Shown here in pieces: positions 6,513 to 47,721 of a DNA stretch of 64,000 nucleotides. The notes below the pieces were generated by a model. That model was not told where the DNA came from. It saw nothing but the letters and a program-made list of their open reading frames with translations, and did no database searches. Location of the stretch: the NCBI GenBank assembly GCA_002011125.2, contig MTMF02000009.1, positions 712,989 to 776,988 on the forward strand. Direction: 5' to 3'. The stretch is from Candidatus Hydrothermarchaeum profundi (GTDB taxonomy: Archaea; Hydrothermarchaeota; Hydrothermarchaeia; Hydrothermarchaeales; Hydrothermarchaeaceae). Both the position numbers and the translations under genes were made by a program. Position 1 is the stretch's first letter. Every line of letters starts with the position of its first letter.

Positions 6513-7904
6513 TTATTTTTTAGACTTTATTAGGAGCCAATTCTTTTCCCCAGCTTTTTTAAACCTTAGAAGTACGTATAAACCTCGCATTTTACTGCCT
6601 TTAACATTGAATTCTATCTTATTTTCTTTCCAACTTAATTCTTCATAGCTTCCCTTATCCCATATCTTCACTATGCCAGCACCATACTCATCTTCAGGTA
6701 TTAAGCCTTCGAAATTACTATACTCTATTGGATGATCCTCGGTCTCTATGGCAAGCCTCTTATCTCCAGTCTCCAAAGGCGGCCCTTTAGGTATAGCCCA
6801 GCTTTTAAGAACACCGTCTTTCTCTAACCTAAGATCATAGTGTAATCTGCGTGCATGATGTTCATGTACTACAAAATATTTATTATGCTGTTTTCTCGAC
6901 TCGCCTACGGGCTCAGAGGTTTTATTGAATTTACTCTTAGAGCGGTATTCTTGTAGTGTATCTGGTTTTATCTGATCTAAAGTACATTCTCTCGGCATCT
7001 TATCCAATCTGAGTCTAATGAATCTTGGCATTCGTAGCTTGCCTTCCCTAGTAATTGACTGATATCCCACTTCACAGACGAGTTCTGGTTTTAGCCAGGT
7101 AATATCCTCAGGGAGATCAGCTCCGCTGAGTATTCCTTCTTTAACCTGCAACTCTTCAAAAACTTTTATCAACTTTCTCATTTCCGCTTCTGAGAAACCG
7201 GTTCCAACTTTCCCTACGTATAAGGGCGTGGCGTGGCTATAGAGACCTAGAATTAGTGCGCCAAAAGTTTCTCGCCTACTCTTTTTCCCTTTGGTGTATC
7301 CGAAGATTACACAGTCGCAGGTTTTAATTTTCTTTATTTTAAGCCAGTCACTACTCCTTCTCCCCGGTTTATATGAACTCTGCTTCTTCTTCGCGATTAT
7401 ACCCTCCATGCCTCTTTTTATAGCTGCTTCGTAATATGCCTCACCTATCTCTTCTACATATATCGACAATACAACATATTTTCCTTCCTTAACGAACTCT
7501 TCCAACATCTTCTTTCGCTCGGTAAGAGGTAAGTCGAGCAGGGGCTCTCCTTCTTTTTCCAAAATATCGAATATCACATAGGTTGCAGGGAATTTTTTAG
7601 AGAGGAGTTTAATGGTCTTTGCTGAGTTAGTCTGGGCTCTTTCTATGAGTCTTTGAAAGTCGATTTGTCCTTCAGTCAGTACAATTATCTCCCCATCGAG
7701 CACTATATCCTTCGCGAGTTTTTTCAACTCAGCTAATTCAGGGAAATTGTACTTTAGTTCGCGTTGTGTCCTGCTTCGTATGCTAAATTCTTCATTGATG
7801 TAGCTTATGGCTCTAATCCCATCCCACTTTATTTCAAAGATCCAGTCTTTAGAGGAAAAAGGAGCTTCTGCAGATTGAGCCAGCATAGGCTTATAGTATC
7901 TCAT
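6513..7904 (-). CDS. ligD: NHEJ ATP-dependent DNA ligase fused to C-terminal LigD 3'-phosphoesterase (PE) domain
   Basis: KWDG adenylation motif, EGIIAK, VGKVGTG; PE motifs HHARRLHYDLRLE, SWAIPKGP, TEDHP, YGAG. Confidence 0.93.
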   Translation of the reverse strand: MRYYKPMLAQSAEAPFSSKDWIFEIKWDGIRAISYINEEFSIRSRTQRELKYNFPELAELKKLAKDIVLDGEIIVLTEGQIDFQRLIERAQTNSAKTIKLLSKKFPATYVIFDILEKEGEPLLDLPLTERKKMLEEFVKEGKYVVLSIYVEEIGEAYYEAAIKRGMEGIIAKKKQSSYKPGRRSSDWLKIKKIKTCDCVIFGYTKGKKSRRETFGALILGLYSHATPLYVGKVGTGFSEAEMRKLIKVFEELQVKEGILSGADLPEDITWLKPELVCEVGYQSITREGKLRMPRFIRLRLDKMPRECTLDQIKPDTLQEYRSKSKFNKTSEPVGESRKQHNKYFVVHEHHARRLHYDLRLEKDGVLKSWAIPKGPPLETGDKRLAIETEDHPIEYSNFEGLIPEDEYGAGIVKIWDKGSYEELSWKENKIEFNVKGSKMRGLYVLLRFKKAGEKNWLLIKSKK

Positions 7905-8701
7905 TTTTTCTCAAGCTGTTTTATGGTTTCCTTAAGTGCTACCATAAGCTCTTTAACTTCCTCTTTCTTAGGCTTCTCTACTACCACCTTCTCGCCCTTC
8001 ATTTTCTTTTCTATAAGCTCCTCAATTTTTTCCTTAAAGGAGTCTTTATATCCTGTAATATCGAACTCACCGGAAAGATTTTCAATTATCTTTATAGCTA
8101 AATCAACCTCTTCGGGGTTAGGTTCCTTTAGCTCTTTTAGCTCTTCTATACCCCTTGGGTCGACGACTTCGTATGGGTATCTTAGGGTTGTAAGTATGAG
8201 TGCTCCTTTATACTCATACACAAGTGCAGGATATTCCTTTGTTCTCAAAGTTATCTTCCCCACTCCAGCTTTTCCAAGTCTTTGAAGAGCTGTAAGTAGA
8301 AGACTATAAGCCTCTTCATTCTTATCTGGTGCTAGAATATAGGACTTATCAAAGTATACCGGATCTACAGATAGAAAATCGATGAACTTGTCTATATGTA
8401 TCTTCTTATCAGATTCGGGCTTTATAGCCTCGAGTTCGTCCTTTTCAAAAACAACGAATTCATTTTTTCCTACTTCATATCCCTTCACTATTTCACTCCA
8501 GCTGACTTCCTTCTCATCTTTTGAGCATATTCTCTTATATTTCAATGGATGTCCATTTTCTTTGTGAAGGAGTTTGAATGAAAATGCGTGTTCTTTTATC
8601 ATAGGATAAAGCTTCACAGGGACATTAACTAGACCAATGCTAATATTTCCGCTCCAAATAGCTTTTCTAGGCGTCGGGGTCTTTTCTTCCTCTCTGCCCA
8701 T
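7901..8701 (-). CDS. ku: Ku protein (NHEJ end-binding)
   Basis: AIWSGNISIGLVNVPVKLY, IVKGYE, DPVYFDKSYIL motifs. Confidence 0.95.
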   Translation of the reverse strand: MGREEEKTPTPRKAIWSGNISIGLVNVPVKLYPMIKEHAFSFKLLHKENGHPLKYKRICSKDEKEVSWSEIVKGYEVGKNEFVVFEKDELEAIKPESDKKIHIDKFIDFLSVDPVYFDKSYILAPDKNEEAYSLLLTALQRLGKAGVGKITLRTKEYPALVYEYKGALILTTLRYPYEVVDPRGIEELKELKEPNPEEVDLAIKIIENLSGEFDITGYKDSFKEKIEELIEKKMKGEKVVVEKPKKEEVKELMVALKETIKQLEKK

Positions 8702-9562
8702 TTAATTGACCTCCAATTTTTGATTCTCCTTTAATATCCCCTCCCAGGGATCTTTTTTTCTTTTAGGGACATTAAATATATTTAACTTTTCAGGTCTTAA
8801 TGTTTTCTTTAGCTCCTTCCATTCTAGTGGAGTTGAAACAGGAGCGTATTTTGTTGCTCTTAAGCTATAAGGGCATATCATCGTCTTTCCAAGCGAGTTC
8901 TGTAAGTAATCTATGAAAACCTTTCCCGGGTCCTTGGATTGTTTAAGTTCTGATACTACGAGGTCTGATTTTTTGGCGAGATATCTCCCTATACTGTAGG
9001 CAAATACTCTCGTCTGTTTAAAAGTATACTTTGGATAGACTGGTATGACTACGTGAAGTCCTTTCTTTCCAGAGGTCTTTACATAAGACTTCAGTCCTAT
9101 GTCTTCTAGAACCTCCCTGAGTAGGAGAGCTACCTCGACTGCATTAGCGAAATCCGCTGGTGGCTCCGGATCTAAATCAAACAATACCAACTCTGGGTTT
9201 TCATAAGAATAGATTCGTGATAACATCACGTTTATTTCGATAGCTGCAATATTTGCAAGCCAGAGTAAAGCGTCGAGGCTGTTACAAACAATATAATTTA
9301 TAGTCTTCTTAGTCGTTTTAGAATACCTAGGGAAAGTCTGGATCCATGAAGGCTTTTCCTTCGGGGCGTCTTTTTCATAAAACCCTTCTTCTTGGATTCC
9401 ATCTGGAAATCTTTTAGTTACAACTGCCCTATCCTGCAGATAATTTAACATCCTAGGAGCTATCTTAATATAATATTCAATAATTTGAGACTTTTTTATT
9501 CCATTGTCTGGATAGAGTATCTTATCGAGGTTGGTGAATTCTACTCTCGTGAGTTCGCCCAT
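8702..9562 (-). CDS. ligD: Stand-alone LigD primase-polymerase (POL) domain
   Basis: TNLDKILYP, RFPDGI, FYEK, FDLDP, KTSGKKGLH, IDYLQN, PYSLR, VSTPLEW. Confidence 0.93.
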   Translation of the reverse strand: MGELTRVEFTNLDKILYPDNGIKKSQIIEYYIKIAPRMLNYLQDRAVVTKRFPDGIQEEGFYEKDAPKEKPSWIQTFPRYSKTTKKTINYIVCNSLDALLWLANIAAIEINVMLSRIYSYENPELVLFDLDPEPPADFANAVEVALLLREVLEDIGLKSYVKTSGKKGLHVVIPVYPKYTFKQTRVFAYSIGRYLAKKSDLVVSELKQSKDPGKVFIDYLQNSLGKTMICPYSLRATKYAPVSTPLEWKELKKTLRPEKLNIFNVPKRKKDPWEGILKENQKLEVN

Positions 9563-20330: not shown

Positions 20331-21146
20331 TTGAGGGATCGGATGAATATAACTAAAATAGGTAGAAGATTGTTGAATTTAACCTTATATTTATTTATAT
20401 TACTTCTTTTATTGAATGTGCTATCTTTTAGCCTCTTAATGCCATTTCCAAAAATTATTCCGCAATCTTCTAACGATCTCTATGCATATGGCAATTGGGC
20501 CGCAGTTGGAATAAGCCTTTTGATTTTTTCTCTTTTTGTTTTAAGCTATATTTCTCCTTTAGAAAAAAAGCATTGGAAGGCATTAGGAATATACGAGGCC
20601 TTTTTGGTTGCACTCTTCACAGAAATGTACGGGTTTCCTCTAACTATATTTCTCCTCTCATCATTCTTAGGACTAGACCTTTCATTTGACCACGTAGGCG
20701 GGCATCTATCCGCAGTATTATTGTCAAAGCTAGGGGTCATGCAAATAAATACTGCGTGGGCTTTAGTCATGGTGTTAAGCAACTTACTCATTGTTGTAGG
20801 CCTAATTTTGATTATCAAAGGATGGAAGAAAATCTATAGATCAAATGGGCTACTTGTAAAAGACGGTGTGTATAGATATATGCGTCATCCACAGTATACG
20901 GGTATCCTCTTAATAACTGTAGGATTTATTGTCCAATGGCCAACTATTATTACAATCATTATGTGGCCTATTCTACTGGTATCTTACTATAGGTTGGCTA
21001 AAAAAGAAGAAAAAACATTGATAAAAGAGTTTCAGGATGAATACTTACAATATGTCAGCGAAACCCCTATGTTCTTACCAAAATTAAATGTATTTGGCTT
21101 CATAAGCGTAGTTATGAACAAACTAAAGAAGCTGAATTCTAGGTGA
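20331..21146 (+). CDS. Isoprenylcysteine carboxyl methyltransferase family membrane protein
   Basis: ALFTEMYGFPLT, GVYRYMRHPQY, EE motif; start may be ATG 20343. Confidence 0.88.
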   Translation: MRDRMNITKIGRRLLNLTLYLFILLLLLNVLSFSLLMPFPKIIPQSSNDLYAYGNWAAVGISLLIFSLFVLSYISPLEKKHWKALGIYEAFLVALFTEMYGFPLTIFLLSSFLGLDLSFDHVGGHLSAVLLSKLGVMQINTAWALVMVLSNLLIVVGLILIIKGWKKIYRSNGLLVKDGVYRYMRHPQYTGILLITVGFIVQWPTIITIIMWPILLVSYYRLAKKEEKTLIKEFQDEYLQYVSETPMFLPKLNVFGFISVVMNKLKKLNSR

Positions 21147-21793
21147 CAATCCAGGAGGTCATATTGTTGAGTGGAAAAGAATTTGTTGAAAGAAAGTATG
21201 ATAGTATATCCCGTTTTTATGACTTTTTCGAATTACCGATGGAGCTACTTTTCTTTAAAAGATGGAGGCGCCTTGCGATTTCAAGGTTAAAAAGTGGTAG
21301 AGTTCTTGAAGTTGGCGTTGGAACGGGAAAAAATCTACCTTATTATGATAGTTCTTTTGAAATATATGGGATAGATATAAGCGAAAAAATGCTATTAAAA
21401 GCCAAAAAAAGAGCTAAAAGATTAAATATATCTCTAAAAATTTATAAAATGGATGTTCAGAATCTCGAATTCCCAGATAATTACTTTGACGGTGAATTTT
21501 CTACGTTTGTATTTTGCTCTGTGCCCGATCCTATTGCTGGCCTTTCTGAATTGATGAGAGTTTTGAAAAAGGATGGAATAGCAGTATTTTTAGAGCATGT
21601 TAGGCCAAAGGGTTTATTAGGTCTTATATTTGATTTTTTTAATCCTATTAGTGTGAGGCTAATAGGAGTTAATATAAATAGAAATACGGTGGAGAATATC
21701 AAAGAAGCGGGCTTTGAAATACTAGAGGAGAATGATCTCTTATTTGATGTTTTCAAATTAATAGTTGCTAAACCATTAGGCAAAGAAGTTTAA
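21143..21793 (+). CDS. Class I SAM-dependent methyltransferase
   Basis: VLEVGVGTGKN, FVFCSVPDP, LEHV. Confidence 0.9.
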   Translation: MTIQEVILLSGKEFVERKYDSISRFYDFFELPMELLFFKRWRRLAISRLKSGRVLEVGVGTGKNLPYYDSSFEIYGIDISEKMLLKAKKRAKRLNISLKIYKMDVQNLEFPDNYFDGEFSTFVFCSVPDPIAGLSELMRVLKKDGIAVFLEHVRPKGLLGLIFDFFNPISVRLIGVNINRNTVENIKEAGFEILEENDLLFDVFKLIVAKPLGKEV

Positions 21794-21866
21794 AAGGAGA
21801 CACGGGATGGGTCCAAAACCGAGGAAGTAGGAGGTGAGAGAGGAATGGACCCATCCTGCAGCTTCT
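21790..21866 (-). ncRNA. Candidate small RNA: 11-13 bp stem with 30-nt CU-rich (anti-Shine-Dalgarno-like) loop
   Basis: Inverted repeat GGATGGGTCCA (21805-21815)/TGGACCCATCC (21846-21856); minus-strand TATAAATA at 21895-21888; U-run right after the stem; ends approximate. Confidence 0.55.
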
Positions 21867-22091
21867 AAATAATAAACTAGTTGTCATTATTTATATCTCT
21901 ATTGCTTACAAATCGCAAAAAATAAAAAATAAAATCTTACTATATGTAATAATAAAGAACCATATCCATTATAATTATCACACTAATTTTGGATGAACGC
22001 TTATCAATTTGCCAAAAAAAGAGTACCTACCTTTACCCCAAATGAACCCTAAAACTTATTAAAAAAAGGAAAAAGAGTAGAAATGTACTTT

Positions 22092-22160
22092 TTACATACA
22101 ACTCTTGTGACATTTACATGTTGAATATTTATCTTTTTTTTCAAGCTTTTTGATTTTCAT
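22092..22160 (-). CDS. 22-aa Cys/His microprotein MKIKKLEKKDKYSTCKCHKSCM (copy 1)
   Basis: ATG..TAA read manually; RBS GGTGAGGTG; upstream BRE/TATA motif; T-rich tract downstream; paralog at 25528-25596. Confidence 0.85.
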   Translation of the reverse strand: MKIKKLEKKDKYSTCKCHKSCM

Positions 22161-22196
22161 CTATAACACCTCACCTTATGACTATAAGTCTAGTTT

Positions 22197-22215
22197 TATA
22201 TAGTTTTTTACTGCA
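22197..22215 (-). promoter_or_regulatory. Promoter motif TGCAGTAAAAAACTATATA (BRE/TATA-like), copy 1
   Basis: Identical 19-mer at 25635-25653, at nearly the same distance from each peptide ATG. Confidence 0.75.
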
Positions 22216-22337
22216 GAAATACTATATATTCTAATATAAATTTTTAATAAAGCATACACATATATGAATTATTTATCAAAGTGAAGAAAATTAAATTCTG
22301 AATCCTCAATCCTCAAGCCTTCTCAAAGAATCTGGCA

Positions 22338-24776
22338 TTATTTCTCTTTAATATACTTGGTATCAGATAAAATTGTCATAATTATGCCAAGGATGAAAAA
22401 TATTATGCCTAACCAGATTTCATTTATAAGAGGTTTCAACTTCACAGTTATAGGAATCTCACCTTCTCCATATACTCCATCGAATATAACGAAAACGTCC
22501 CTCAATAAGCTTCTATCTATTAGAGGTCTTCTAGCAATTCCATTTTTATAAGTTTCAACTTTTGCTACACCTCCTCCAATTCTGTTATAACCTTTGTAAA
22601 CATCTATTTTTATTTGTTGGATGGTCTTATATGGACTACCCTTAAGATTTTGTTGAAACTCTTCAAATCGGGGCGACAAAACTATTATATCAAAAGTTTT
22701 ATTCAGAGTCTGACTTGTAAAATTTAGCAGCAATGTGGCATCATAAACTACTAACTCAATCCCCCTCGGGACGTTGGCTTTATTGACAGCGACCCATAAA
22801 GTCTTGTTATCTCCTACAAGCTTGATATAGGTGTTATGTTCCAATTGTATTACTTCCTCAACTATGCCTCGAATAGTATAGGAATCTCTATAACTGCCTT
22901 GGGCAATTTCATTATATAACTCAGAAACGCTTATCCCTGGAGGAGAATAATACTCTATTTTCTCTTCACTTCCATAATCTACGATTTCTTTATAGTCTAA
23001 TAGCATAATAGAGTAGGGGCTCCATCCTTCTCCGGAATGCACGCCCCAGGTTCCAAGCCTACCAAATCCTTCATGTACTTTTGCGGGTTCAATGCTTATA
23101 AGTTGGCCCTTATTATTGAGGCTTAAAGTAGCTGAAAAGTTGGAAGTAAAGAGACTGGAAAACACGATTCCAAGGCTAATTAACACTACCCCTAAATGAA
23201 TAGAAATTATTCCCAACTCTTTAATCTTGTATTTTTTCCTACTACCTTCTGAAATTCTCAATCTCCATCTTTCTATTGCAGCAAAAAAAATATAAATTGA
23301 GGGAGGTATTATGCTAAGTGCAGAGGTAGATCCTATAACTCGATATAATAAGGGTTTTGAAGAACTTACTATTGCTGTGTAATCAATTATGTTGAAATTT
23401 TCATTGGGTTTTATTATACCGGCTATTAGTGTAAAAACTGAGAACCCTATGAAAGCTAACATTGCTCGCCTCCTGATTGATTCATGGTAATGTAATCCTA
23501 GGCCTACGAGAAGGAGCATTATTATGAAGAATGGAAAAATCCAAAGATTGAAGAACTGGACGGTGACAGCGTATTTCTTCGTAGTAAGTGATTTAATTAT
23601 TGGGGGGTAAGTTATACCAAAAAAAGAGATAAAAGTAATTATTAAAATGACTAATATTGCTGCATAAAAGATGTTAGTCCTATTCAATATGCGATTTTCC
23701 TCTTTTTCTATTTTTTCTGTTTTCAAATATTTTATTATTCCTAACACCAGAGGAAGAATAAAAGATCCTACAGCCAATATTATGATGAACTTCCCAACGT
23801 TTCCTGAAATGAAAGAGTGTACAGATTCAAAAATACCACTTCTAGTAACCATAGTCGCATATACTACAAAAGAAAATGAAAACGATACAAGCACCGGTGC
23901 TAGAATATTATATCTCTCCTTATTTCTTCTTAGTTCTACTACTGTATGTATTGCCCCGGTCAGCATCAGCCACGGGAGGAGCATAGCTGTCTCAACCGGG
24001 TCCCATGCCCAGAATCCTCCCCATCCCAAGGTCTTATAAGCCCAGATACCTCCAAATGCCATAGAGAGGGTCGAGAAAAGCCAAGAAACCCTTAGCCACT
24101 GGATACCTTTTTCTATCCATATCCTATGCGCGACTTCTTCGTTCTTCCCCCTAAAGGTAAGGTATAGGTAGACCAAAGCGCCGGCAAACGGTACAGTAGT
24201 ACCTGCATACCCAAGAAAGGTGGTCAAAGGGTGAGTAGCCATCCATGGGTCAAGCAATAAGGGGTTTAGACCATTACCGTCTTCAGGGATAAAATCCTTA
24301 GGTAATTCGAGGTAGAGTTGATGAATAGTCTTGAAGGGAGAATCAAGTAATGTTAGAAAACTAAAATACAATGCAAGAAAAATAACTATTATCTGCGTTT
24401 TCTTGACAAAATCCGATGTACTATCCTTAGTTTCATTAAGCCAAAGGCTACCAATACCTATAAGAGCTGCCCAGAAAAGGAGAGTGCCCTGTTGACCCGC
24501 TAAAGCTCCTGAGAGTCGATAGTATAGTGGATAATACTTACTAGAAAATGCCCATACGTAGTTTAAGCTAAAATCACTAACTGCGAAGTAATATGAAAGC
24601 AATATAAAGTCTAAGAAAAGCACTGTGGAGAATCCTCTAATAAGCCATTTTACATAATTGCTAAATTTTAAAAGGAAATTCAGTTGCTCGCATATTAAAC
24701 CCGCAAGTGCTACTACAGCTAGAATAACACTTATATAGAGTAGTAAGTCGCCTATCGGAGTTGTGAGGTTAAGCAT
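22338..24776 (-). CDS. ccmF: Cytochrome c heme lyase CcmF/NrfE family, long form with C-terminal insertion
   Basis: AGQQGTLLFW, GNGLNPLL, HP, LGWGGFWAWDPVE (WWD), SVHSF, HLG. Confidence 0.92.
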   Translation of the reverse strand: MLNLTTPIGDLLLYISVILAVVALAGLICEQLNFLLKFSNYVKWLIRGFSTVLFLDFILLSYYFAVSDFSLNYVWAFSSKYYPLYYRLSGALAGQQGTLLFWAALIGIGSLWLNETKDSTSDFVKKTQIIVIFLALYFSFLTLLDSPFKTIHQLYLELPKDFIPEDGNGLNPLLLDPWMATHPLTTFLGYAGTTVPFAGALVYLYLTFRGKNEEVAHRIWIEKGIQWLRVSWLFSTLSMAFGGIWAYKTLGWGGFWAWDPVETAMLLPWLMLTGAIHTVVELRRNKERYNILAPVLVSFSFSFVVYATMVTRSGIFESVHSFISGNVGKFIIILAVGSFILPLVLGIIKYLKTEKIEKEENRILNRTNIFYAAILVILIITFISFFGITYPPIIKSLTTKKYAVTVQFFNLWIFPFFIIMLLLVGLGLHYHESIRRRAMLAFIGFSVFTLIAGIIKPNENFNIIDYTAIVSSSKPLLYRVIGSTSALSIIPPSIYIFFAAIERWRLRISEGSRKKYKIKELGIISIHLGVVLISLGIVFSSLFTSNFSATLSLNNKGQLISIEPAKVHEGFGRLGTWGVHSGEGWSPYSIMLLDYKEIVDYGSEEKIEYYSPPGISVSELYNEIAQGSYRDSYTIRGIVEEVIQLEHNTYIKLVGDNKTLWVAVNKANVPRGIELVVYDATLLLNFTSQTLNKTFDIIVLSPRFEEFQQNLKGSPYKTIQQIKIDVYKGYNRIGGGVAKVETYKNGIARRPLIDRSLLRDVFVIFDGVYGEGEIPITVKLKPLINEIWLGIIFFILGIIMTILSDTKYIKEK

Positions 24777-24794
24777 TCTGCCCTCCCCTATAAG

Positions 24795-25265
24795 TTATTG
24801 TATGTTGTCATAGTAGAAATCCCGCACTTCTTTAATTATACTATAAAACTTCTCCTTCGGCACGTAACCAGGGACCTTCGTTATAACTTCTCCTTCGGGC
24901 GTCAGAAAAAGCTCATAAGGAGGTGCTTGTACATTGAATCTACGGGTGTCTTGCTTATTAACGTCCATATCTACGGCTATGAGTACAAAGTCCTTCTCTA
25001 ATATCTCAAAAGTAGGCTCATAAGGAAACACTTCAACTTGCATTTTCTCGCAATAGGTACACCAGATGGTCCAAAAATAAACAAAGATGGGTTTATTAAG
25101 TTCTCGGGCCACTTTAGCTCCTTCATCGTATGAGTTATACCATCGGAGTCCACTTAGGTATGTGTATTTCTCGTCGCTCACCATTGGAGTCGCATTAACT
25201 GCGTAATATACATAGACACCGATCACAACTAGTGCGGCAATAGTGAGTAGTTTTTTAGTTTTCAC
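24795..25265 (-). CDS. Membrane-anchored thioredoxin-fold protein (SoxW/DsbD-gamma-like)
   Basis: N-terminal TM, WCTYC. Confidence 0.85.
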   Translation of the reverse strand: MKTKKLLTIAALVVIGVYVYYAVNATPMVSDEKYTYLSGLRWYNSYDEGAKVARELNKPIFVYFWTIWCTYCEKMQVEVFPYEPTFEILEKDFVLIAVDMDVNKQDTRRFNVQAPPYELFLTPEGEVITKVPGYVPKEKFYSIIKEVRDFYYDNIQ

Positions 25266-25281
25266 AGCTGATCTAGCCTCG

Positions 25282-25470
25282 TTATTCTGTTTTCTTTTTC
25301 ATTGCGAAGTGGTTGCCGTGGGAATGTTTCCCCATTAATTTAAGATCTCCAACTAGACCAAAGATGAATCCTAAGCCCGGGGCGATATAGGTATACGGAC
25401 CTCCCAAGTATTGACCGATTACCAGTCCGCCAAAAAATCCTACACAGCACATCATGTCAAGATCCCTCAC
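25282..25470 (-). CDS. Small 2-TM protein with CC motif and His-rich tail
   Basis: MMCCVGFFGG..., HSHGNH; true start probably the ATG of MMCC. Confidence 0.6.
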   Translation of the reverse strand: MRDLDMMCCVGFFGGLVIGQYLGGPYTYIAPGLGFIFGLVGDLKLMGKHSHGNHFAMKKKTE

Positions 25471-25527
25471 TAGACGTTATAATGGGCTTTTGCACTTTTG
25501 TCGATCCTTTTATCTTATAGAGGCCTG

Positions 25528-25596
25528 TTACATACAACTTTTATGGCATTTGCAGGTCGAATACCTGTTTTCTTTCTCAACTTTTTTGATTTTCAT
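25528..25596 (-). CDS. 22-aa Cys/His microprotein MKIKKVEKENRYSTCKCHKSCM (copy 2)
   Basis: ATG..TAA read manually; RBS GGGTGA; shared promoter motif; paralog of 22092-22160. Confidence 0.85.
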   Translation of the reverse strand: MKIKKVEKENRYSTCKCHKSCM

Positions 25597-25634
25597 CTAT
25601 CAATCACCCTAAAGCTCTACATACATGAACAGAA

Positions 25635-25653
25635 TATATAGTTTTTTACTGCA
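25635..25653 (-). promoter_or_regulatory. Promoter motif TGCAGTAAAAAACTATATA, copy 2
   Basis: Identical to 22197-22215. Confidence 0.75.
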
Positions 25654-25752
25654 AAAAATAAGTATTTATTTATATTAATCTTACAAAATGCAAAGATCAA
25701 TTTTTTTTTAATTATACTTAAGAAAGTCTTTACTATTGAGGATTAGAGGCTA

Positions 25753-26250
25753 TCAGGTAATAGAAGTTAGGGTTTTTAAAAAATCTTTCGCATCGATAAA
25801 GCCTACAATCTTTTTGATGATTTTTCCTTCCGGATCAACGAACACTAAGGTGGGGGTTCCTCGAACACCGAATTTTATTATTATTGGGATGTTCTCTCTA
25901 TCATTCACATCAATAGATGCTAGTATGAAATTCTCTTCTAGAGCAGATTTTACTTTTTTGTCTGATAGTACATCTGAGTCGAATTTCATACACCATACAC
26001 AGGACTCTGATCTGAAGTAGACTAGCGTTGGTTTTCTGGACTCGCCGGCTATCTTAACTGCTTTGTCATAAGATGTATAAAATGGTAGTCCGGAGATTAG
26101 GATGATTTCTTCATTCGGATCTGAAATATTCCCTAGAGAGCCTATTTCAGTTATTTTCTCGGTATCACCTCTGATTCCATAGATTCCCCAAAAAATAGCA
26201 AAGGATGCTAGTAACACTACAGCTATAATGAGAATTTTCTGTATCTCCAC
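25753..26250 (-). CDS. Membrane-anchored thioredoxin-fold protein
   Basis: N-terminal TM, CVWC, GVRGTPT. Confidence 0.85.
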   Translation of the reverse strand: MEIQKILIIAVVLLASFAIFWGIYGIRGDTEKITEIGSLGNISDPNEEIILISGLPFYTSYDKAVKIAGESRKPTLVYFRSESCVWCMKFDSDVLSDKKVKSALEENFILASIDVNDRENIPIIIKFGVRGTPTLVFVDPEGKIIKKIVGFIDAKDFLKTLTSIT

Positions 26251-28842: not shown

Positions 28843-28973
28843 AATTTTTTACTCTTTCAAAACATTTTAAAATATATCGTAAGCCCAAAGTATGGTTGTG
28901 CAGGGGTATGCTCAAAAAAGTAGCATATATTGGATTATATATAACATAATCTTAATTACTCAAGGTAGGAGGT

Positions 28974-30134
28974 GTGAGAGTGTCGGATACTCCCCTTTTG
29001 GATGAGGCTGAGAAAGGTCCATGGCCGAGTCTTGTCACAGAGATAAAGAAAACGGGATTTAAAGGCCTACTCAAAATATATGAGCTGGCTTATGAGGATA
29101 AAGTAACTCACTGGACTCATGGAGGGATGGTAGGCTACCCCGGATATGATGCGGGGGTAATAGGCAGGCTTAGCGATCGGCATGACATTCTTAGAGATTG
29201 CCATACTATACGGATGATACAGCCAGCGGCTTGGTTTTACAGCACAAAAAAGTTGAGAAAGCTTGTTGAGATCTGGAATAAGTACTCATACGGCTTGATG
29301 AACTTTCATGGAGCGACCGGAGATTTTCAATTAATCGGCATAGAAACAGATAAAATAGAGCCTTTCTTCGATGAAGTCTCGAAGGAGCACTGGGATATAG
29401 GGGGCTCTGCCGGTGACTTTAGGACTGCAAGCTGTTGTATAGGTCCCGCTAGGTGTGAGATGGCCCTGATAGATACTTTGGATATCTATCAGACGCTGAT
29501 GAGTGACGAAGAGATATTGAATGATATGCATAGACCAAGGTTTCCATACAAATTCAAAGTAAAGATAGCTGGTTGTCCAACTGATTGCATTGCTGGTGTA
29601 GCTAGGGCAGACCTATTGGTCGTAGGAACATGGAGGGATAATATTAAGATAAACCAGGAGGAGGTAAGGAAATACGCTGAGAAGGGAGTAGATATTGGTT
29701 TAATAGCTTCGAAATGTCCTGGAAATGCTATGCAGTGGGATGGAGAGGAGCTTAAGATTGATAATGATAACTGCATGCGTTGTATGTTCTGCCTTCAAAA
29801 AATGTCTAAGGCTCTTAGACCTGGAGATGATAGGGGTGCTACCCTGGTTATGGGTGGTAGGGCTAGGGGGAGATATGGAGCCTTTTTAGGATGGGTTTTA
29901 ATGCCCTTTATCAAACTCGAAAAGCCCTATGAAGAGCTTAAAGACCTCATATACAAGCTCATTGACTGGTGGGATGAGAATGGCAGAACAAAGGAGAGGA
30001 TCGGCGAGACTATATACAGGTTGGGAGCAGGTAAGTTCTTAAAAGAGACTGGTTTGAAGCCGCATCCAGCGATGGTTCAAGCTCCTAGGAATAATCCTTT
30101 CTGGTTCTATTGGCCTGGAGAAGTAGAAGAGTGA
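28974..30134 (+). CDS. dsrA: Dissimilatory sulfite reductase alpha subunit
   Basis: TPLLDE..KGPWPS, THWTHGG, NFHGATGD, CIGPARC, FPYKFK..GCPTDC, CMRCMFC; likely start GTG 28980. Confidence 0.93.
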   Translation: MRVSDTPLLDEAEKGPWPSLVTEIKKTGFKGLLKIYELAYEDKVTHWTHGGMVGYPGYDAGVIGRLSDRHDILRDCHTIRMIQPAAWFYSTKKLRKLVEIWNKYSYGLMNFHGATGDFQLIGIETDKIEPFFDEVSKEHWDIGGSAGDFRTASCCIGPARCEMALIDTLDIYQTLMSDEEILNDMHRPRFPYKFKVKIAGCPTDCIAGVARADLLVVGTWRDNIKINQEEVRKYAEKGVDIGLIASKCPGNAMQWDGEELKIDNDNCMRCMFCLQKMSKALRPGDDRGATLVMGGRARGRYGAFLGWVLMPFIKLEKPYEELKDLIYKLIDWWDENGRTKERIGETIYRLGAGKFLKETGLKPHPAMVQAPRNNPFWFYWPGEVEE

Positions 30135-30145
30135 GGTGAGGAGAG

Positions 30146-31228
30146 ATGGCTTTAACTATGGATGAGCTTGACTTTGGACCGCCTGATTATAAGGAAATGC
30201 TACCGGAGACCCTTAAAAGGAACTATGGAAAGTGGATATACCACGAGCTAATAAAGCCGGGAGTATTTAAGCATGTTTCGAGTACTGGGGACGAGGTGTA
30301 CACGGTTAGGTCCGGGCAGCCTAAGTTTATAGCGTCTTCAACAGTTCTTAAGCTGTGTGACTTAGCTGACAAATACTGTGAGGGCTCTTTAAGGTTTACC
30401 AGCAAACATAGTATTGAGTGGATAGTACCGAAAAAAGATGATGTAGATAAGCTGATAGAAGAGTTAAAGAAACTCGGGTTACCGATAGGAGGAACAGGAA
30501 ACGCTATGCATAGTATTGTGCAGTGTACCGGCTGGGTGCACTGTCATACCCCTGCAACTGATGCTCCCGGAATCGCCAAGGCAGTTTATGATGAGTTAAT
30601 CTCTTACTTCCAGAGGGATGACTTGCCTGCTAGACTGAATATAGCTGTCTCTGGGTGTTTGAATATGTGTGGCGCTATTCACTGCTCGGATATAGCGGTT
30701 CTCGGCGTACATAGGCGTCCGCCAAAGGTGAATGATGAGGTAGTATCAAAAGCATGTGAGATTCCTACTATGATAGCTTCGTGTCCTACCTACGCTATCA
30801 AGCCCAATCCAAAGGCGAAAAGCATTAGGATTGATGCTAATAAATGCATGTATTGTGGAATCTGCTATAGTATTTGCCCGGGGGTACCTATTGCAGATGC
30901 GAAGAACGATGGAGTTTCTATTTGGGTAGGTGGGAAGGTATCTAATACTCGAAGTGGTCCAGCGTTTTCACGTTTAGCGGTTCCTTATCTGCCGAATAAT
31001 CCTCCTAGGTGGCCGGAGGTAGTGGAGGTAGTAAAGAAGATAGTGGAGACATGGGCGAGTGAAGCTAAGCCTCATGAGAGAATGGGCGAGTGGATTTCAA
31101 GGATAGGATGGCCTGCTTTCTTCGATAAGACGGGTCTAGAGTTTACGGATAAACACATTGATGACTATATCTTTTCTATTAGAGATATGAGAGTTGGTGC
31201 TAGGATAAGGGGACGTGAGATGAAGTGA
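30146..31228 (+). CDS. dsrB: Dissimilatory sulfite reductase beta subunit
   Basis: GPP..NYGKW, GWVHCHTPATD, CLNMCGAIHCSD, CEIP..CPT, CMYCGIC, PNNPPRWPE. Confidence 0.93.
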   Translation: MALTMDELDFGPPDYKEMLPETLKRNYGKWIYHELIKPGVFKHVSSTGDEVYTVRSGQPKFIASSTVLKLCDLADKYCEGSLRFTSKHSIEWIVPKKDDVDKLIEELKKLGLPIGGTGNAMHSIVQCTGWVHCHTPATDAPGIAKAVYDELISYFQRDDLPARLNIAVSGCLNMCGAIHCSDIAVLGVHRRPPKVNDEVVSKACEIPTMIASCPTYAIKPNPKAKSIRIDANKCMYCGICYSICPGVPIADAKNDGVSIWVGGKVSNTRSGPAFSRLAVPYLPNNPPRWPEVVEVVKKIVETWASEAKPHERMGEWISRIGWPAFFDKTGLEFTDKHIDDYIFSIRDMRVGARIRGREMK

Positions 31229-31272
31229 GGGTAGGGCAATAATATTTTATCAAGTATTATTGACTATCGTAT

Positions 31273-31860
31273 ATGCTTGTTAAGATCGGTGGGAGCCTGT
31301 TAGAATATTCAAGGGAAATCTTGAAGATACTAAAGAAATATGATCCCGTAATAGTTCCGGGAGGAGGGGTATTTGCAGAGTTAGTTAGGAGGATATATTC
31401 GGGTTATGGTATCTCTGAAAAGGCTGCTCACCGTATGGCTATTTTAGCCATGGAACAATATGGACTTTTTCTATCAGATATCTCAGGTATTCCCTCAAGC
31501 TATGAGTTAGGAAATAGTCGCCCTTTTATCTTTTTACCCTCAAGGCTACTGGAAGAAGAACCTCTTAAAGCCTCTTGGGATGTAACTTCGGATACGATAG
31601 CCTGTCATGTAGCCAAGCTTTTGGGGGAAAGGATCTTCATCAAATTAACGGATGTTGATGGGGTACTTGTCCGAGGAAGGTATGTTAAGGAGATATCAGC
31701 CACAGAGCTTCTTAAAATTGGAACTACCTGCGTAGATAAAGAGTTGCCGAAGTATCTTATGAAATACGGTATAAATTGTTGGGTGGTAAACGGCAAAAGG
31801 CTGGAGAATGTGGATAGGGCGATGAGAGGCAACATAAAAGGTACATTGATTTCTCATTGA
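31273..31860 (+). CDS. Amino-acid kinase family protein (MfnE-like, methanofuran biosynthesis)
   Basis: VKIGGSL, PGGGVFA, AHRMAILAMEQYG, SWDVTSD, TDVDG. Confidence 0.8.
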   Translation: MLVKIGGSLLEYSREILKILKKYDPVIVPGGGVFAELVRRIYSGYGISEKAAHRMAILAMEQYGLFLSDISGIPSSYELGNSRPFIFLPSRLLEEEPLKASWDVTSDTIACHVAKLLGERIFIKLTDVDGVLVRGRYVKEISATELLKIGTTCVDKELPKYLMKYGINCWVVNGKRLENVDRAMRGNIKGTLISH

Positions 31861-32178
31861 GCACTATGTTTACTTTTGTTTAATAAGGATTTTTATAAGG
31901 TATTTTAGCGTGTAATGTTTAAACATTCATTTTTTGAATAGAATGATGCATAAATGTAACCAAAAACATATATAAGGCCTTATCTATAGTAGTGGGAGAA
32001 TAGGAGTGAGTTAGAAGGAGGTTAAGGCTAAATTGGGGATTATTAAATATTTTTTTAAGAAACCCTTTTATATGAGTGCTTTTTTTGGTATGGGGATAAG
32101 AAATGTTGGGGCAATTAACAAATAGCGTAACAATATGCAAATATGATTTAGTTAATTTTAAACAGAGGAGGTAGGAAG

Positions 32179-35100
32179 GTGAAATTTAGTTTTTGGAAGC
32201 TATTTTTCATGTTTTCTGTGTTACTTGTTGGGATGTCAAACGTCTATGCTGCTGAGTATGCTATTTTCGCAAGTTTAGATTCTCATAAATACTTGCCGGG
32301 GGAATATGTAAATTTAACTGGTGAAATCTATAGCGGTACTACGTTAGCCTCGGATGTTAACGTAGGGGTTAGTATTTACTTTGGGGAGTCTATTGTTTCT
32401 TCTGACTCAGCTAAAACAGATTCTTCTGGCTCTTTTAGTTTCACTTTTACCGATGCCACAGCTAATAAGGGTGATTATACTGTAAACATAACGGTTGGCT
32501 CCTCCTCTGTGGTGATACCCTATACTGTTAGTTCAGCTGAAAACTTTATGCTTATCCTTGTAAATGAAACTATACCGGTCTCTCTTGCTCCTTTCTCTCT
32601 GAATGATGTTAATTCAGGTAATATCGTGTTTGTAGACTCCTCGATTGACATCAGTAGCGCGGTAGCAAAGAATTTCACTTATAATAATACCGAGTACTGG
32701 GTTCTTTTACCTAGAGCTTCAAGCGGAAAGTACGAAGAGGCGTTTATTGATGATGATGCGAACTTCTCTTTAAGTAGCGATAGCAGCGGTAGCCCGGTTA
32801 TAAAGTACTTGAAAGAAGGCTCTAAGGTAAAATTGAGCGATAAGAACTTTATAATAGCATATATTGATCCATTTGGCTCTGAAATAATATTTGCGGAGGA
32901 TATCCCTGCTAGGTTCTCTGGAGGGGAAGACGCAAAACTTTTATGCATTGCAACAAATGCATCCGGCGGGCCTGTTAGCGATGAAAATCTCACTCTTAAG
33001 AAGTTCTATGATAACGGAACTATAATAAAGAATTATGGGGTTATAGGAGTTTCAAATAGTGGTGGCTACTATATTTATAGCATATCTGTGGATACAGATG
33101 GGGGAAGAAAACATTATATACTCAACGATGCAGGCCATGCTTCGTATGAAGTATCTACATACACTCTTAATGTCCTCATAACAGATAGTGAGGGTAACCC
33201 GGCTTATGTAGTTAAACCTGGTCAAGACCTAAACATTACCGTAAGCATTCTTGACTCTTCTAACCAGCCTATATCAAATACTTGGGTGAATGTTTCTATC
33301 ACCGGAACAGAATACAATAGTAGGTTTAGCATGAACCTGCCAAATGGGACCATTACCCAAACAATTTCAGCTCCAACTAAGCCTGGGTCCTACACCCTTG
33401 AGTTTATTTCAAACTATAATGGCGAGAAAAAGAAGATAATCAATAAAATCGTAGTTAAACAATACAATCTATTTATAGCTCCTCTAGCAAAGGGTAAGGG
33501 TGCTTCTCAGGGATTTGCTCCAGGCGAGTATGGAGCAATTTTTGTTGCAGCTACAGACTTATCTACCGGCGATTTTCTGAATCTCTCAGATTTAACTGGT
33601 GATGGGGTCAATGTTTCTCTGGAAGGATTTTATGATTCATCTGGAAACAACAAGTTCACAGGTGACACGGTTCTCTCGGATACGACAGAAGCGAATGTAT
33701 CCCAGATAATTGCAAATGGAAATGCAGCAGTGATGAATATAAGCGGATTCTTCCATTTCCTTACAGATACCGGAGAGATCATGCCTGAGGAAGAACAGAC
33801 TTGGCTGGAGGAAAAATTCGGCGAAAAGGCGATTGTCATAATCTTCCAGGCTCCATTTGAGGAGGATACCTACAAAGTAAAAGTTAGTGCAATAATAGAA
33901 GGAACTGATCAATACGCCTTCAATACGATAGGAGTCCAGAGGATATTCGTATGGGGCGAGCCAGTAGATGCGGAGAGCAAGAGCTTTACGTGGGGAATAA
34001 GTCCCGGTAGCGATATTTGCTTAAATATAAGAGGATATGATCCGGGTAAAGGACCTATTGATGGAAGTAAGATAAATGATGCTACACTGATAGAGGTTAT
34101 AGCTGAGAGCGGAGCTAGTGTAACAAGTTCTATGGTGAATGAGAATTTCACCAAGGAAGAAAACAATGCATATCTTTGCTTCACAGTAAACGATAGCGAG
34201 ATGGGTGGTCATTTTGTTAGGTTCAGAGTAAACGCTACGGTAGAGAAGTGGAATGGAACAGAGTATGTTCAAAACTATACGACGGCGATCGGAGACGGAT
34301 GGTTCCAAGAAAAACTATACCAAGTATGGGCATATCCCTATGTAGAAGGCTCTGAGACGGACGGCGGTAGAAAGGCCGTGTTTGGTTCTAATAGCAATAT
34401 CATCTTGAGGGTAGAAGTTAGGAATGCTCAGGGTGGTCAACTGGGCCAAACGCAAGCAGAGGGTATAACGGTTTCTCTGGTAGAGGTTAGAAATGATAGG
34501 ACTTGGCAGACCGTTGATGCTACTGCATCGTCTACGACAACAGATTCAAATGGCACAGCAACACTTAATATAAGTAAGACTAGTGGGTCTTGGAGTAGTG
34601 GGGGCTATGTTGTTAAGGTAAAAATCGTAGATACTAATGACCAAACCGATTATGGTTATGGTTGGTTTGAAATAAGAAACTTCAATTTCTGGGCTTGGAC
34701 AAATAATTGGGAGGTCTCTCTCAATAAGGATATAAGCGTCACATTAGAAACAAAAGAATTTAATTTCACTGGTATTTCTGCTACTATCACAGCTGAGAGA
34801 CTCATGTATATGGGCACTTTCGACAAGTGGCAGCCTCCAGTATTGGTGAATGATTCACTAGGAGTAACAGGGCAGACGGATTCTAGCGGCTCTGGTAGCT
34901 TAACTATACCTGCAGGTACTTTGAAAGAGGAGGGCCAGTATATGCTTACCTTAAAAGCTACAACTACAGATGGCAGGACGGATAATACCGATGTCTGGTT
35001 CTATGCGAAGTCATTTGTTCTTGACGTGAGAGATGAAAATCAAGATACTTGGCCTCCCCGGTATGGGTTAACGGATATAGCTAATATAACTGTGAGAGGA

Positions 35101-47367: not shown

Positions 47368-47721
47368 TTGAGGTGGAGAAGAGTGAATAATAAGGAAAAA
47401 GAGCTCCTCCGCATTATAAGACGTGATGGCAGAGTTAAAACAGTAGACATAGTAGAACAAGCCGATATGTGCAAAGTAACGGTTCTTAAATACCTTAATA
47501 AGCTTAAGGACGCTGGGCTGGTGGATTACGAACTCGTGGGACCTACCAAGCTATGGTACGCTGTGGAAGATGGAGGCCCCAGGGGGAGGGGGCCTCTTAA
47601 TATCCTAGACGTAGAGATCTCCGAGCTGTTAGATAGGTTCGAGGCGGCAGTAGGCAAGAGAGCGTTCGTGATAATGACCGACGACAGAGATTTGATTAAT
47701 ATCCTTAGTAGGAGAGGATAG
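47368..47721 (+). CDS. Winged-HTH transcription regulator
   Basis: 'KVTVLKYLNKLKDAGLV'. Confidence 0.75.
   Translation: MRWRRVNNKEKELLRIIRRDGRVKTVDIVEQADMCKVTVLKYLNKLKDAGLVDYELVGPTKLWYAVEDGGPRGRGPLNILDVEISELLDRFEAAVGKRAFVIMTDDRDLINILSRRG

What the first reader, a model, noticed from the sequence alone, without database searches (positions are those of the whole stretch)
21790..21897. Candidate anti-Shine-Dalgarno sRNA whose loop matches the dsrA, dsrB and surface-protein translation starts
Seen: perfect 11-bp inverted repeat (13 with G-U) enclosing a 30-nt loop. On the minus strand it has TATAAATA ~25 nt upstream and a U-run directly after, i.e. a self-contained ~75-nt transcript exposing UUCCUCUCUCACCUCCUACUUCCUCGG. 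The complement GTAGGAGGTGAGAGAG (21827-21842) matches 15/16 nt of the dsrA RBS/start region GTAGGAGGTGTGAGAG (28965-28980). It also matches dsrB GAGGTGAGGAGAG (~30133-30145, one bulge) and the 2011-aa gene GAGGAGGTAGGAAGGTGA (32165-32182, one G-U, one bulge). RBS-masking trans sRNAs are established in Methanosarcina. Inference: a regulator of sulfite reductase translation. Caveat: the SD core inflates such matches.
Basis: partly seen in the sequence, partly recalled or inferred. Interest (0 to 1): 0.75.

Follow-up and report, generated by a model that had tools for sequence, protein, structure and literature searches.

The report
Hairpin with ribosome-site-like loop
A very stable hairpin sits just after a methyltransferase gene in a heat-loving, sulfite-reducing archaeon, and its large loop is either a perfect ribosome-binding site or, on the other strand, its mirror image, which could block the start sites of the sulfite reductase genes; sequence alone cannot decide.

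Summary
An 11-bp perfect, GC-rich stem (21805-21815 / 21846-21856) encloses a 30-nt loop. It is the most stable of 1500 intergenic 60-nt windows. All quoted matches to dsrA, dsrB and the 2011-aa gene are at the stated coordinates.

- For it: among 61 gene starts in the window, those three rank 1-3 as predicted targets. Among 1891 pairs of start regions, hairpin-dsrA is the only 15/16 match.
- Against it: loops shuffled with the anti-SD core kept reach the same best energy in 23-26% of trials. The sum of the top three is reached in 5-6.5%. dsrB matches almost any such loop (316 of 400).

On the + strand the same loop is a canonical start site: the full 9-nt SD, 7 nt, then ATG. It heads only a 7-codon ORF.

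Transcription could not be tested. Conservation could not either, because no close relative is within reach.

Best reading (about 0.4): a roughly 74-nt minus-strand RBS-masking sRNA acting on the strongest start sites, not shown to be specific for dsr. Main rival (about 0.3): a 3'-UTR stem-loop of the methyltransferase operon.

The parts
21792..21865 (-). Predicted ~74-nt hairpin RNA (candidate sRNA). Its ends are inferred, not mapped.
   Evidence: The TATA-like box ends 23 nt upstream of 21865 and a U4 run lies at 21795-21792. The fold is -23.6 kcal/mol, z -3.3. Loop unpaired probability is 0.87-0.93.
21805..21815 (.). Left arm of the perfect 11-bp inverted repeat
   Evidence: pair I6: 100% complementary
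21846..21856 (.). Right arm of the perfect 11-bp inverted repeat
   Evidence: pair I6
21816..21845 (.). 30-nt loop, purine-rich on + and CU-rich on -
   Evidence: It is one of 9 purine-rich tracts on the + strand of the window (at least 23 of 26 purines, at least 10 G).
21829..21837 (.). AGGAGGTGA: the full 9-nt Shine-Dalgarno on +, and its complement (anti-SD mimic) on -
   Evidence: It occurs 3 times on both strands of the window. The other 2 occurrences are at real gene starts, 11008(-) and 38215(+).
21888..21895 (-). TATAAATA, a candidate archaeal TATA box for the minus-strand RNA
   Evidence: Sequence. It resembles the TATA-like boxes upstream of other genes in the window. It carries little weight in a 25%-GC spacer.
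21792..21795 (-). U4 run after the hairpin on the minus strand; a weak oligo-T signal
21845..21868 (+). 7-codon mini-ORF (MDPSCSF, stop) that starts 7 nt after the perfect SD. It is in frame with the methyltransferase gene.
   Evidence: The spacing is the same as at gene 38215.
21807..21830 (+). A first 7-codon mini-ORF (MGPKPRK, stop), 7 nt after AAGGAG. Its stop codon overlaps the second SD.
   Evidence: read
21143..21793 (+). Class I SAM-dependent methyltransferase, the last gene of a geranylgeranyl-reductase-family / ICMT-like / methyltransferase operon. The extended hairpin helix on the + strand begins 9 nt after its stop codon, the perfect stem 11 nt.
   Evidence: Pfam Methyltransf_11, E 1.8e-22; NCBIfam; homologues end at the same place
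28963..28982 (+). dsrA translation start region: SD AGGAGGTG and the GTG start at 28980. Predicted pairing site.
   Evidence: The start is confirmed by alignment to the N-terminus of A. fulgidus DsrA.
30117..30148 (+). dsrB translation start region: a purine-rich tract with ATG at 30146. Predicted pairing site, but unspecific.
   Evidence: It is in the top 3 of 316 of 400 shuffled loops.
32161..32182 (+). Translation start region of the 2011-aa gene (GTG at 32179). Predicted pairing site.
   Evidence: There is a 14/16 ungapped match to loop positions 21817-21832.

Best explanation
The hairpin is the body of a small (~74-nt) RNA transcribed from the minus strand. The proposed unit starts about 23 nt after a TATA-like box, near 21865, and ends at the short U-run at 21795-21792.

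Its stable GC-rich stem holds open a 30-nt CU-rich loop.

The loop would pair with purine-rich translation start regions, cover the SD and start codon, and keep the small ribosomal subunit off. In this window the best predicted sites are dsrA, the 2011-aa gene next to the dsr genes, and (unspecifically) dsrB.

I read it as a masker of the strongest ribosome-binding sites rather than a dedicated dsr regulator. It would also be perfectly antisense to the 3' tail of the methyltransferase mRNA.

Shown: the structure, the loop content and the in-silico ranking. Inferred: transcription, strand, ends, and any effect on translation.
For: The structure is real and looks selected.
- z is -3.3 to -3.7 with 0 of 200 shuffles as good.
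- It is the most stable of 1500 intergenic windows.
- GC is 57% inside a 25%-GC spacer.
- The organism's proteins suggest growth at about 74-82 C (the regression is recalled from memory). The stem is still folded at 80 C.
- The loop is predicted unpaired, 0.87-0.93.

The loop content is not chance.
- AGGAGGTGA occurs only 3 times in 128 kb of both strands. The other 2 occurrences are at gene starts.

Target ranking.
- Top 3 of 61 starts, with a gap of more than 5 kcal/mol to the fourth after accessibility is added.
- Duplexes stay favourable at 80 C: dsrA -9.9 and the 2011-aa gene -11.4 kcal/mol.
- Two genes with the perfect 9-nt SD but AT-rich flanks (11008, 38215) score far worse, at -18.7 and -22.5. 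The flanks, not only the SD core, carry the match.

Specific likeness to two start regions.
- Of 1891 pairs among 62 start-region sequences, hairpin-dsrA is the only 15/16 pair. Hairpin-2011-aa gene is one of four 14/16 pairs.
- No pseudo-sRNA made from a real start region has a third-best target as good (0 of 61).
- The energy on dsrA is reached by 0.3% of 300 shuffled loops.

Gene-like layout on the minus strand.
- Three strong T-runs lie upstream. Then come a TATA-like box, the hairpin and U4.

Precedent. RBS-masking loops or linkers are described for Methanosarcina sRNA154, sRNA41 and sRNA162 (passages read in PMC5867862, and PMC3510493).
Against: No expression data.

With the anti-SD core kept, shuffled loops do nearly as well.
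- Best energy reached in 23% of 300, 102 of 400 at 37 C and 42 of 400 at 75 C.
- Third best reached in 5.3%.
- Sum of the top three reached in 26 of 400 and 19 of 400.
- The same top-3 set appears in 5 of 300.

dsrB is a top-3 hit for 316 of 400 shuffles.

In a scan of the whole window, internal coding sites score as well as the start regions: 47553 at -33.4, 15761(-) at -31.6 and 29649 at -30.2.

The targets were picked from the only 64 kb available.

The U-run is only four U. The TATA-like box lies in a 25%-GC spacer where such octamers are common.

On the + strand the loop is a canonical SD with ATG at 7-nt spacing, which the sRNA reading leaves as coincidence (my estimate is about 1 in 4).

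The + strand fold is somewhat better (-27.9 against -23.6).

The methyltransferase gene has no T4 run for 194 nt after its stop, so the + strand copy of the hairpin is almost certainly transcribed as well.
Confidence: 0.4

Rival explanations
1. Plus-strand element. The hairpin is the 3'-UTR stem-loop of the methyltransferase operon mRNA. It is made by read-through from the gene and blocks 3'-to-5' decay or marks the mature 3' end. Its loop shows a perfect SD with an AUG at the stem base, so small ribosomal subunits could dock or translate a 7-codon mini-ORF. A variant: the loop acts as a decoy that titrates whatever binds the similar dsrA and 2011-aa gene start regions.
For: - The extended + strand helix starts 9 nt after the stop codon, and the perfect stem 11 nt, with no T-run before it. 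The first T4 is at +194 and the first T5 at +296. By contrast, 16 of 22 genes with free downstream space have a T4+ run within 70 nt of the stop.
- The + fold is the stronger one (-27.9 against -23.6).
- Of those 22 genes, 3 have a strong sense-strand hairpin in the first 120 nt after the stop, and this is the strongest.
- The full 9-nt SD plus ATG at 7 nt has the same spacing as gene 38215.
- A second SD-like AAGGAG plus ATG at 7 nt sits in the left arm.
Against: - A 3' protective hairpin needs no 30-nt loop and no SD. The ORF is 7 codons and nothing follows on that strand.
- No known class of archaeal 3'-UTR SD hairpin came up (searches, listings only).
- It gives no reason for the loop to be the best match in the window to the dsrA start region and a top match to that of the 2011-aa gene, unless it is a decoy.
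- The link between missing T-runs and hairpins is weak: 2 of 6 genes without an early T-run against 1 of 16 with one.
Confidence: 0.3
2. Relic. The loop and ATG are the leftover start site of a gene that once followed the methyltransferase gene and was lost by deletion. The stem once coupled its translation to the upstream gene. It has no present function.
For: SD and ATG are at canonical spacing, followed by only 7 codons and then AT-rich non-coding DNA. The stop of each short frame overlaps the next SD, as at real operon junctions such as dsrA/dsrB.
Against: An unselected relic should not keep a perfect 11-bp GC-rich stem that is the most stable intergenic structure in the window. Only 2 of 61 real starts have the full 9-nt SD. 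No remnant of a gene body follows.
Confidence: 0.12
3. DNA-level palindrome: a protein-binding site, a recombination site or the footprint of a small mobile element, with no RNA role.
For: Perfect 11-bp inverted repeat.
Against: No second copy of the arm in the window beyond chance: 4 matches at 2 mismatches or fewer, including both arms themselves, with 32 of 100 shuffles reaching 4. I saw no flanking direct repeats. No match in the plasmid or phage collections. It does not explain the SD content of the loop.
Confidence: 0.05
4. Recoding. The hairpin, whose extended helix starts 9 nt after the TAA, stimulates stop-codon read-through. That would extend the methyltransferase by 24 in-frame codons that end just after the stem.
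For: The methyltransferase frame stays open for 24 codons, to the TAA at 21866-21868. The spacing to the hairpin resembles known recoding stimulators (recalled from memory).
Against: An open frame of 24 codons in purine-rich sequence is expected by chance about one time in three (my estimate). Of the 10 closest homologues, 7 end within 3 residues of the shared ...IVAKP motif, and the 3 longer tails look unrelated in the alignment. 5 of the 7 best genome loci also end within 7 residues. TAA read-through is not known in archaea (recalled from memory).
Confidence: 0.02

Closest known systems
Methanosarcina mazei RBS-masking sRNAs (sRNA154 loop 2, sRNA41, sRNA162)
   Same: These are archaeal intergenic small RNAs with an unpaired stretch complementary to ribosome-binding sites. 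sRNA41 is proposed to mask RBSs within polycistronic mRNAs. sRNA162 masks an internal RBS and also acts as a cis-antisense RNA. (Passages read in PMC5867862, and PMC3510493.) The dsrA/dsrB pair and the antisense overlap with the methyltransferase mRNA tail would parallel this.
   Different: Those RNAs have mapped ends, homologues in sister species, and gel-shift and genetic evidence. Here nothing is mapped and no relative is available. sRNA162 is 191 nt with three stem-loops and a 39-nt single-stranded linker. This candidate is a single hairpin of about 74 nt, from a likely hyperthermophile related to Archaeoglobus by its DsrA. There is no sequence or Rfam similarity.
C-rich or UCCC-loop sRNAs of Firmicutes (RNAIII / Rsa family, RoxS / FsrA)
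   Same: Hairpin loops rich in C and U pair with SD sequences of many mRNAs and block initiation (recalled from memory; only the listing of the review PMC9266662 was seen).
   Different: They are bacterial. Their loops are short (roughly 7-14 nt, recalled), whereas this loop is 30 nt and carries the full 9-nt anti-SD. No homology.
Ordinary translation initiation region of this genome (for example gene 38215, or dsrB)
   Same: AGGAGGTGA followed after 7 nt by ATG, inside a purine-rich tract about 30 nt long, as at dsrB.
   Different: The reading frame is 7 codons long. The start codon sits at the base of a 13-bp helix, and no gene follows.
3'-terminal stem-loops that stabilise mRNAs (bacterial and plastid type)
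   Same: A stable GC-rich hairpin just after a stop codon at the end of an operon, with no nearby T-run.
   Different: Such hairpins normally have small loops. A role in archaea is not established here. The 30-nt SD loop is unexplained by this reading.

Membership tests
RBS-masking trans-acting sRNA (Methanosarcina sRNA154 / sRNA41 / sRNA162 type) | Discrete small transcript with its own start and 3' end | not testable with these tools
   Only a TATA-like octamer and a U4 run can be read from the sequence. No expression data.
RBS-masking trans-acting sRNA (Methanosarcina sRNA154 / sRNA41 / sRNA162 type) | Unpaired segment complementary to the SD and start codon of a target mRNA | tested here: met
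   Loop unpaired probability is 0.87-0.93. There is a duplex of 12 bp, one mismatch and 5 bp over the dsrA SD and GTG.
RBS-masking trans-acting sRNA (Methanosarcina sRNA154 / sRNA41 / sRNA162 type) | Target match above the background of SD-bearing genes | tested here: inconclusive
   The three targets rank 1-3 of 61, and hairpin-dsrA is the best of 1891 start-region pairs. Core-preserving shuffles reach the best energy in 23-26% of trials and the sum of the top three in 5-6.5%. Only 64 kb of the genome was seen.
RBS-masking trans-acting sRNA (Methanosarcina sRNA154 / sRNA41 / sRNA162 type) | Conserved in related genomes, with the stem kept through compensatory changes | not testable with these tools
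   The genome scan gave at most 49% identity for the neighbouring gene and no hairpin homologue in 56 loci. The nearest proteins have 65-69% identity.
Bacterial-type intrinsic terminator | Short-loop GC hairpin directly followed by a U-run | tested here: not met
   0 sites on either strand in 21000-22600 (that scan accepts only loops of 3-8 nt). On the + strand no T-run follows. On the - strand only U4 follows.
Archaeal oligo-T terminator of the methyltransferase gene | Run of T shortly after the stop codon on the sense strand | tested here: not met
   First T4 at +194 and first T5 at +296. 16 of 22 comparable genes have a T4+ run within 70 nt.
Translation initiation region of a protein-coding gene | SD complementary to the 16S 3' end, at 4-9 nt from a start codon | tested here: met
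   AGGAGGTGA, 7 nt, then ATG at 21845.
Translation initiation region of a protein-coding gene | An open reading frame of plausible length follows | tested here: not met
   7 codons, then TAA. No + strand ORF of 20 aa or more starts in the spacer.
Any curated RNA family (Rfam 15), including C/D and H/ACA guide RNAs and SECIS | Match to a covariance model | tested here: not met
   0 matches at gathering score in the whole window. In 21700-22400 at E up to 10 there are 4 weak matches (E 4.3-9.5), none over the hairpin. No tRNA or tmRNA.

The most novel reading that the evidence does not exclude
A hyperthermophilic, Archaeoglobus-like sulfite reducer makes a one-hairpin RNA whose 30-nt loop imitates the 3' end of its own 16S rRNA. 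The loop is tuned, beyond the SD core, to the start regions of dsrA and of the giant cell-surface gene beside the dsr genes. Translation of the key enzyme of dissimilatory sulfite reduction would then be throttled directly by an RNA. The listings showed no sRNA regulator of Dsr. It would also be a rare case of RBS masking at about 80 C. The + strand copy in the methyltransferase mRNA tail could act as its built-in sponge.
Probability: 0.18. Interest if true: 0.7.

Novelty: new member of a known kind. Interest (0 to 1): 0.4.

Why it matters
If the minus-strand RNA exists and acts as proposed, it would extend RBS-masking riboregulation from mesophilic Methanosarcina to a hot, sulfite-reducing archaeal lineage. 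It would also give a handle on post-transcriptional control of dsrAB, which is usually studied only at the level of transcription.

If instead the + strand is the functional one, it would be an odd 3'-UTR element that displays a perfect ribosome-binding site. No such class came up in my searches.

Either way, one strand-specific RNA experiment settles the question. As it stands this is an attractive candidate, not a finding.

Tried and rejected
- **Comparative genomics.** The best had 49% identity (a Chloroflexi MAG). blastn-short of the hairpin and of the spacer against all 56 loci (850,899 nt) gave only 12-21-nt chance hits, with E of 0.024 or more. The protein search shows the gene on a 1.9-Mb contig, with the next relatives at 65-69% identity. 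Loop conservation and stem covariation therefore stayed unchecked.
- **Rfam.** Nothing.
- **tRNA and tmRNA.** None.
- **Plasmid and phage collections.** No match to the 561-nt spacer.
- **Truncated or read-through C-terminus of the methyltransferase.** Rejected, because homologues end at the same place.
- **K-turn, C/D box and H/ACA boxes, archaeal SECIS.** Looked for by eye and not seen. There is no in-frame TGA in the operon.
- **Small protein on the minus strand.** The 39-aa ORF at 21768-21887 has no SD, overlaps the methyltransferase gene, and looks spurious.
- **RNAcofold of the full RNA with 100-nt leaders.** It opens the stem instead of modelling a loop-target contact, so I drew no conclusion from those energies.
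- **CRISPR link.** One spacer (58003-58041) matches the loop at 14 of 15 nt, E 0.36, which is chance level.
- **Shared 12-mer.** AAAAGGAGAC[A/T]C sits in front of this hairpin and of the hairpin at 57669. 6 of 100 shuffles give as many matches, so I treat it as chance.
- **Wobble pairs as a strand indicator.** Each strand gains two G-U pairs in the outer helix, so this is uninformative.
Full report
**Where it is.**

The window comes from an archaeon. The evidence:
- An archaeal-type threonyl-tRNA synthetase (844 bits, cutoff 484).
- A PGF-pre-PGF surface protein, an archaeal SbcD-related phosphoesterase, and methanofuran-pathway enzymes.
- True dsrA (28980-30134) and dsrB (30146-31228), both above their equivalog cutoffs.
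- DsrA is closest to the solved Archaeoglobus fulgidus enzyme (3mm5_A, E 3.5e-130).

Amino-acid composition suggests growth at about 74-82 C (the regression is recalled from memory).

The finding lies in a 544-nt, AT-rich spacer between two convergent genes. One is a SAM-dependent methyltransferase (21143-21793, +), the last gene of a geranylgeranyl-reductase-family / ICMT-like / methyltransferase operon. The other is ccmF (22338-24776, -). On the + strand the extended helix begins 9 nt after the methyltransferase stop codon, and the perfect stem 11 nt.

- The arms 21805-21815 and 21846-21856 are 11 nt, 100% complementary and 30 nt apart.
- Both strands fold far better than shuffles: z is -3.3 for the minus strand and -3.7 for the plus strand, with 0 of 200 shuffles as good for the 71-nt versions.
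- The region ranks 16-17 of 6393 (+) and 23-24 of 6393 (-) among all 70-nt windows.
- It is the most stable of 1500 intergenic 60-nt windows.
- It is a GC island, 57% against 25% for the rest of the spacer.
- The stem stays folded at 80 C.
- The 15/16 match to the dsrA start region and the dsrB and 2011-aa gene strings are at the stated coordinates.

Two small corrections. The U-run is only four U. The TATA-like octamer ends 23 nt before 21865 and 31 nt before the perfect stem.

**What the loop is.**

Gene starts in this window use a strong SD. 28 of 61 crude gene calls have 5 nt or more of AGGAGGTGA at the right distance, and 10 of 61 have 7 nt or more. The full 9-mer occurs only three times on both strands. 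Two are real gene starts and the third is this loop.

So the loop is not a random purine tract. It is either a start site (+ strand) or the complement of one (- strand). Given the loop's own base composition, I estimate the chance of the 9-mer at about 0.2% (my arithmetic, not a tool result).

**Test of the sRNA reading.**

*In favour:*
- Against the -30..+15 regions of 61 genes, the loop's best duplexes are the 2011-aa gene (-32.1), dsrA (-29.9), dsrB (-29.3) and gene 62778 (-29.1). The median is -13.3.
- Adding the cost of opening the target puts dsrA, the 2011-aa gene and dsrB at ranks 1-3 (-22.0, -21.9, -21.7; fourth -16.4) at 37 C. At 75 C they rank 2, 1 and 6.
- Two genes with the perfect 9-nt SD but AT-rich flanks score poorly, at -18.7 and -22.5. 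The match is therefore not just the SD core.
- Reverse complements of real start regions, used as mock sRNAs, never have a third-best target as good (0 of 61). 2 of 61 have a better best target.
- In an ungapped comparison of 62 start-region sequences (1891 pairs), hairpin-dsrA is the only 15/16 pair. Hairpin-2011-aa gene is one of four 14/16 pairs, and it uses the other half of the loop.

*Against:*
- Shuffling the loop flanks while keeping the 9-nt core gives a best energy as good as the real one in 23% of 300 trials. In the second run it does so in 102 of 400 trials at 37 C and 42 of 400 at 75 C.
- A third-best energy as good arises in 5.3% of trials.
- A sum of the top three as good arises in 26 of 400 trials at 37 C and 19 of 400 at 75 C.
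- dsrB is among the top three for 316 of 400 shuffles, so its match says nothing. dsrA (46 of 400) and the 2011-aa gene (62 of 400) are more specific. The dsrA energy itself is reached by 0.3% of shuffles, before any correction for 61 genes.
- A scan of all 15,990 40-nt windows on both strands finds coding-internal sites as good as the start regions.
- The window is only about 3% of the genome, so the targets were picked where the light was.

My reading is borderline statistical support for a specific relation to dsrA and the 2011-aa gene, and none for dsrB.

**The + strand reading.**

- AGGAGGTGA is followed after 7 nt by ATG (21845), the same spacing as at gene 38215. The frame ends after 7 codons.
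- A weaker AAGGAG plus ATG (21807), also with 7-nt spacing and 7 codons, sits in the left arm.
- The methyltransferase gene has no T4 run for 194 nt after its stop. 16 of 22 comparable genes have one within 70 nt. The + strand hairpin must therefore be part of that mRNA.
- Strong sense-strand hairpins after stops are rare (3 of 22 genes) and this is the strongest.
- This reading explains the ATG and the location. It does not explain the 30-nt loop, the 7-codon frame, or the special likeness to two particular start regions.

**Other readings tested and set aside.**

- Read-through or a truncated C-terminus. The methyltransferase frame is open for 24 more codons. But 7 of the 10 closest homologues end within 3 residues of the shared motif, and the three longer tails look unrelated.
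- Bacterial-type terminator: none found.
- Known RNA families: none.
- Mobile element or plasmid/phage DNA: none.

**What could not be done.**

- Transcription cannot be tested with these tools.
- Conservation cannot be tested either. The one genome scan found at most 49% identical homologues of the neighbouring gene and no hairpin homologue in the 56 loci it returned. The protein database shows no relative closer than 65-69%.
- Three literature searches (listings only) showed no paper on an sRNA controlling dsrAB in archaea. I read passages of PMC5867862 and PMC3510493 for the Methanosarcina precedents.

**Verdict.**

The structure is real and very likely selected. Its loop is SD-related by design or by descent.

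I put about 0.4 on a minus-strand RBS-masking sRNA that acts on the strongest start sites, with dsrA and the neighbouring giant gene as the best in-window candidates. I put about 0.3 on a + strand 3'-UTR stem-loop that displays an SD. About 0.12 goes to a relic start site, and the rest to minor readings.

The narrower claim of a dedicated regulator of sulfite reductase gets about 0.18. If real, it would be a new member of a known kind. As a candidate without expression or conservation data, its interest is moderate.

Noticed in passing
It has 18 identical 37-nt repeats ending in ATTGAAAC and 17 spacers of 36-43 nt. One spacer occurs twice (58233-58270 equals 58459-58496). No cas gene is seen in the window. 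Rfam gave no CRISPR-DR hit at gathering score.
   Followed up: partly
window 22092-22160 (-): A 22-aa Lys- and Cys-rich ORF (MKIKKLEKKDKYSTCKCHKSCM) in the same spacer. It has GAGGTG 6 nt before its ATG, a TATA-like box about 30 nt further upstream, and T5/T7 runs right after its stop. It looks like a real small-protein gene.
   Followed up: partly
window 57669-57716 (+) and 47776-47808 (+): Two more strong + strand hairpins in spacers. One lies in the CRISPR leader, and its inner stem pairs AGGAGG with CCUUCU. The other is a continuous 14-bp stem (some G-U pairs) with a 5-nt loop between gene 47383-47721 and the response-regulator gene at 47965. The 12-mer AAAAGGAGAC[A/T]C precedes both the CRISPR-leader hairpin and the hairpin under study. 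6 of 100 shuffles give as many matches.
   Followed up: partly
window 6513-9562 (-): A bacterial-type end-joining set in an archaeon: Ku (267 bits, cutoff 150), a LigD ligase plus phosphoesterase gene, and a separate LigD polymerase-domain gene.
   Followed up: no
window 28980-31860 (+): dsrAB is followed by an MfnE-like kinase gene, with no dsrD-sized ORF between them. hemA is divergent upstream. DsrA lacks an 18-residue insert that the A. fulgidus enzyme has.
   Followed up: no
window 24776 (-) and 1031 (+) start regions: The start regions of ccmF and of the unrelated gene at 1031 share TATAGGGGAGGGC (14/16). Long matches between start regions therefore do occur in this window.
   Followed up: yes
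window 22338-26250 (-): An 812-aa CcmF/NrfE-type haem lyase is followed on the same strand by two thioredoxin-fold proteins. This is a cytochrome c maturation cluster next to the dsr genes.
   Followed up: no
window 58003-58041: CRISPR spacer 4 matches the hairpin loop (21824-21838) at 14 of 15 nt, E 0.36. This is chance level.
   Followed up: yes
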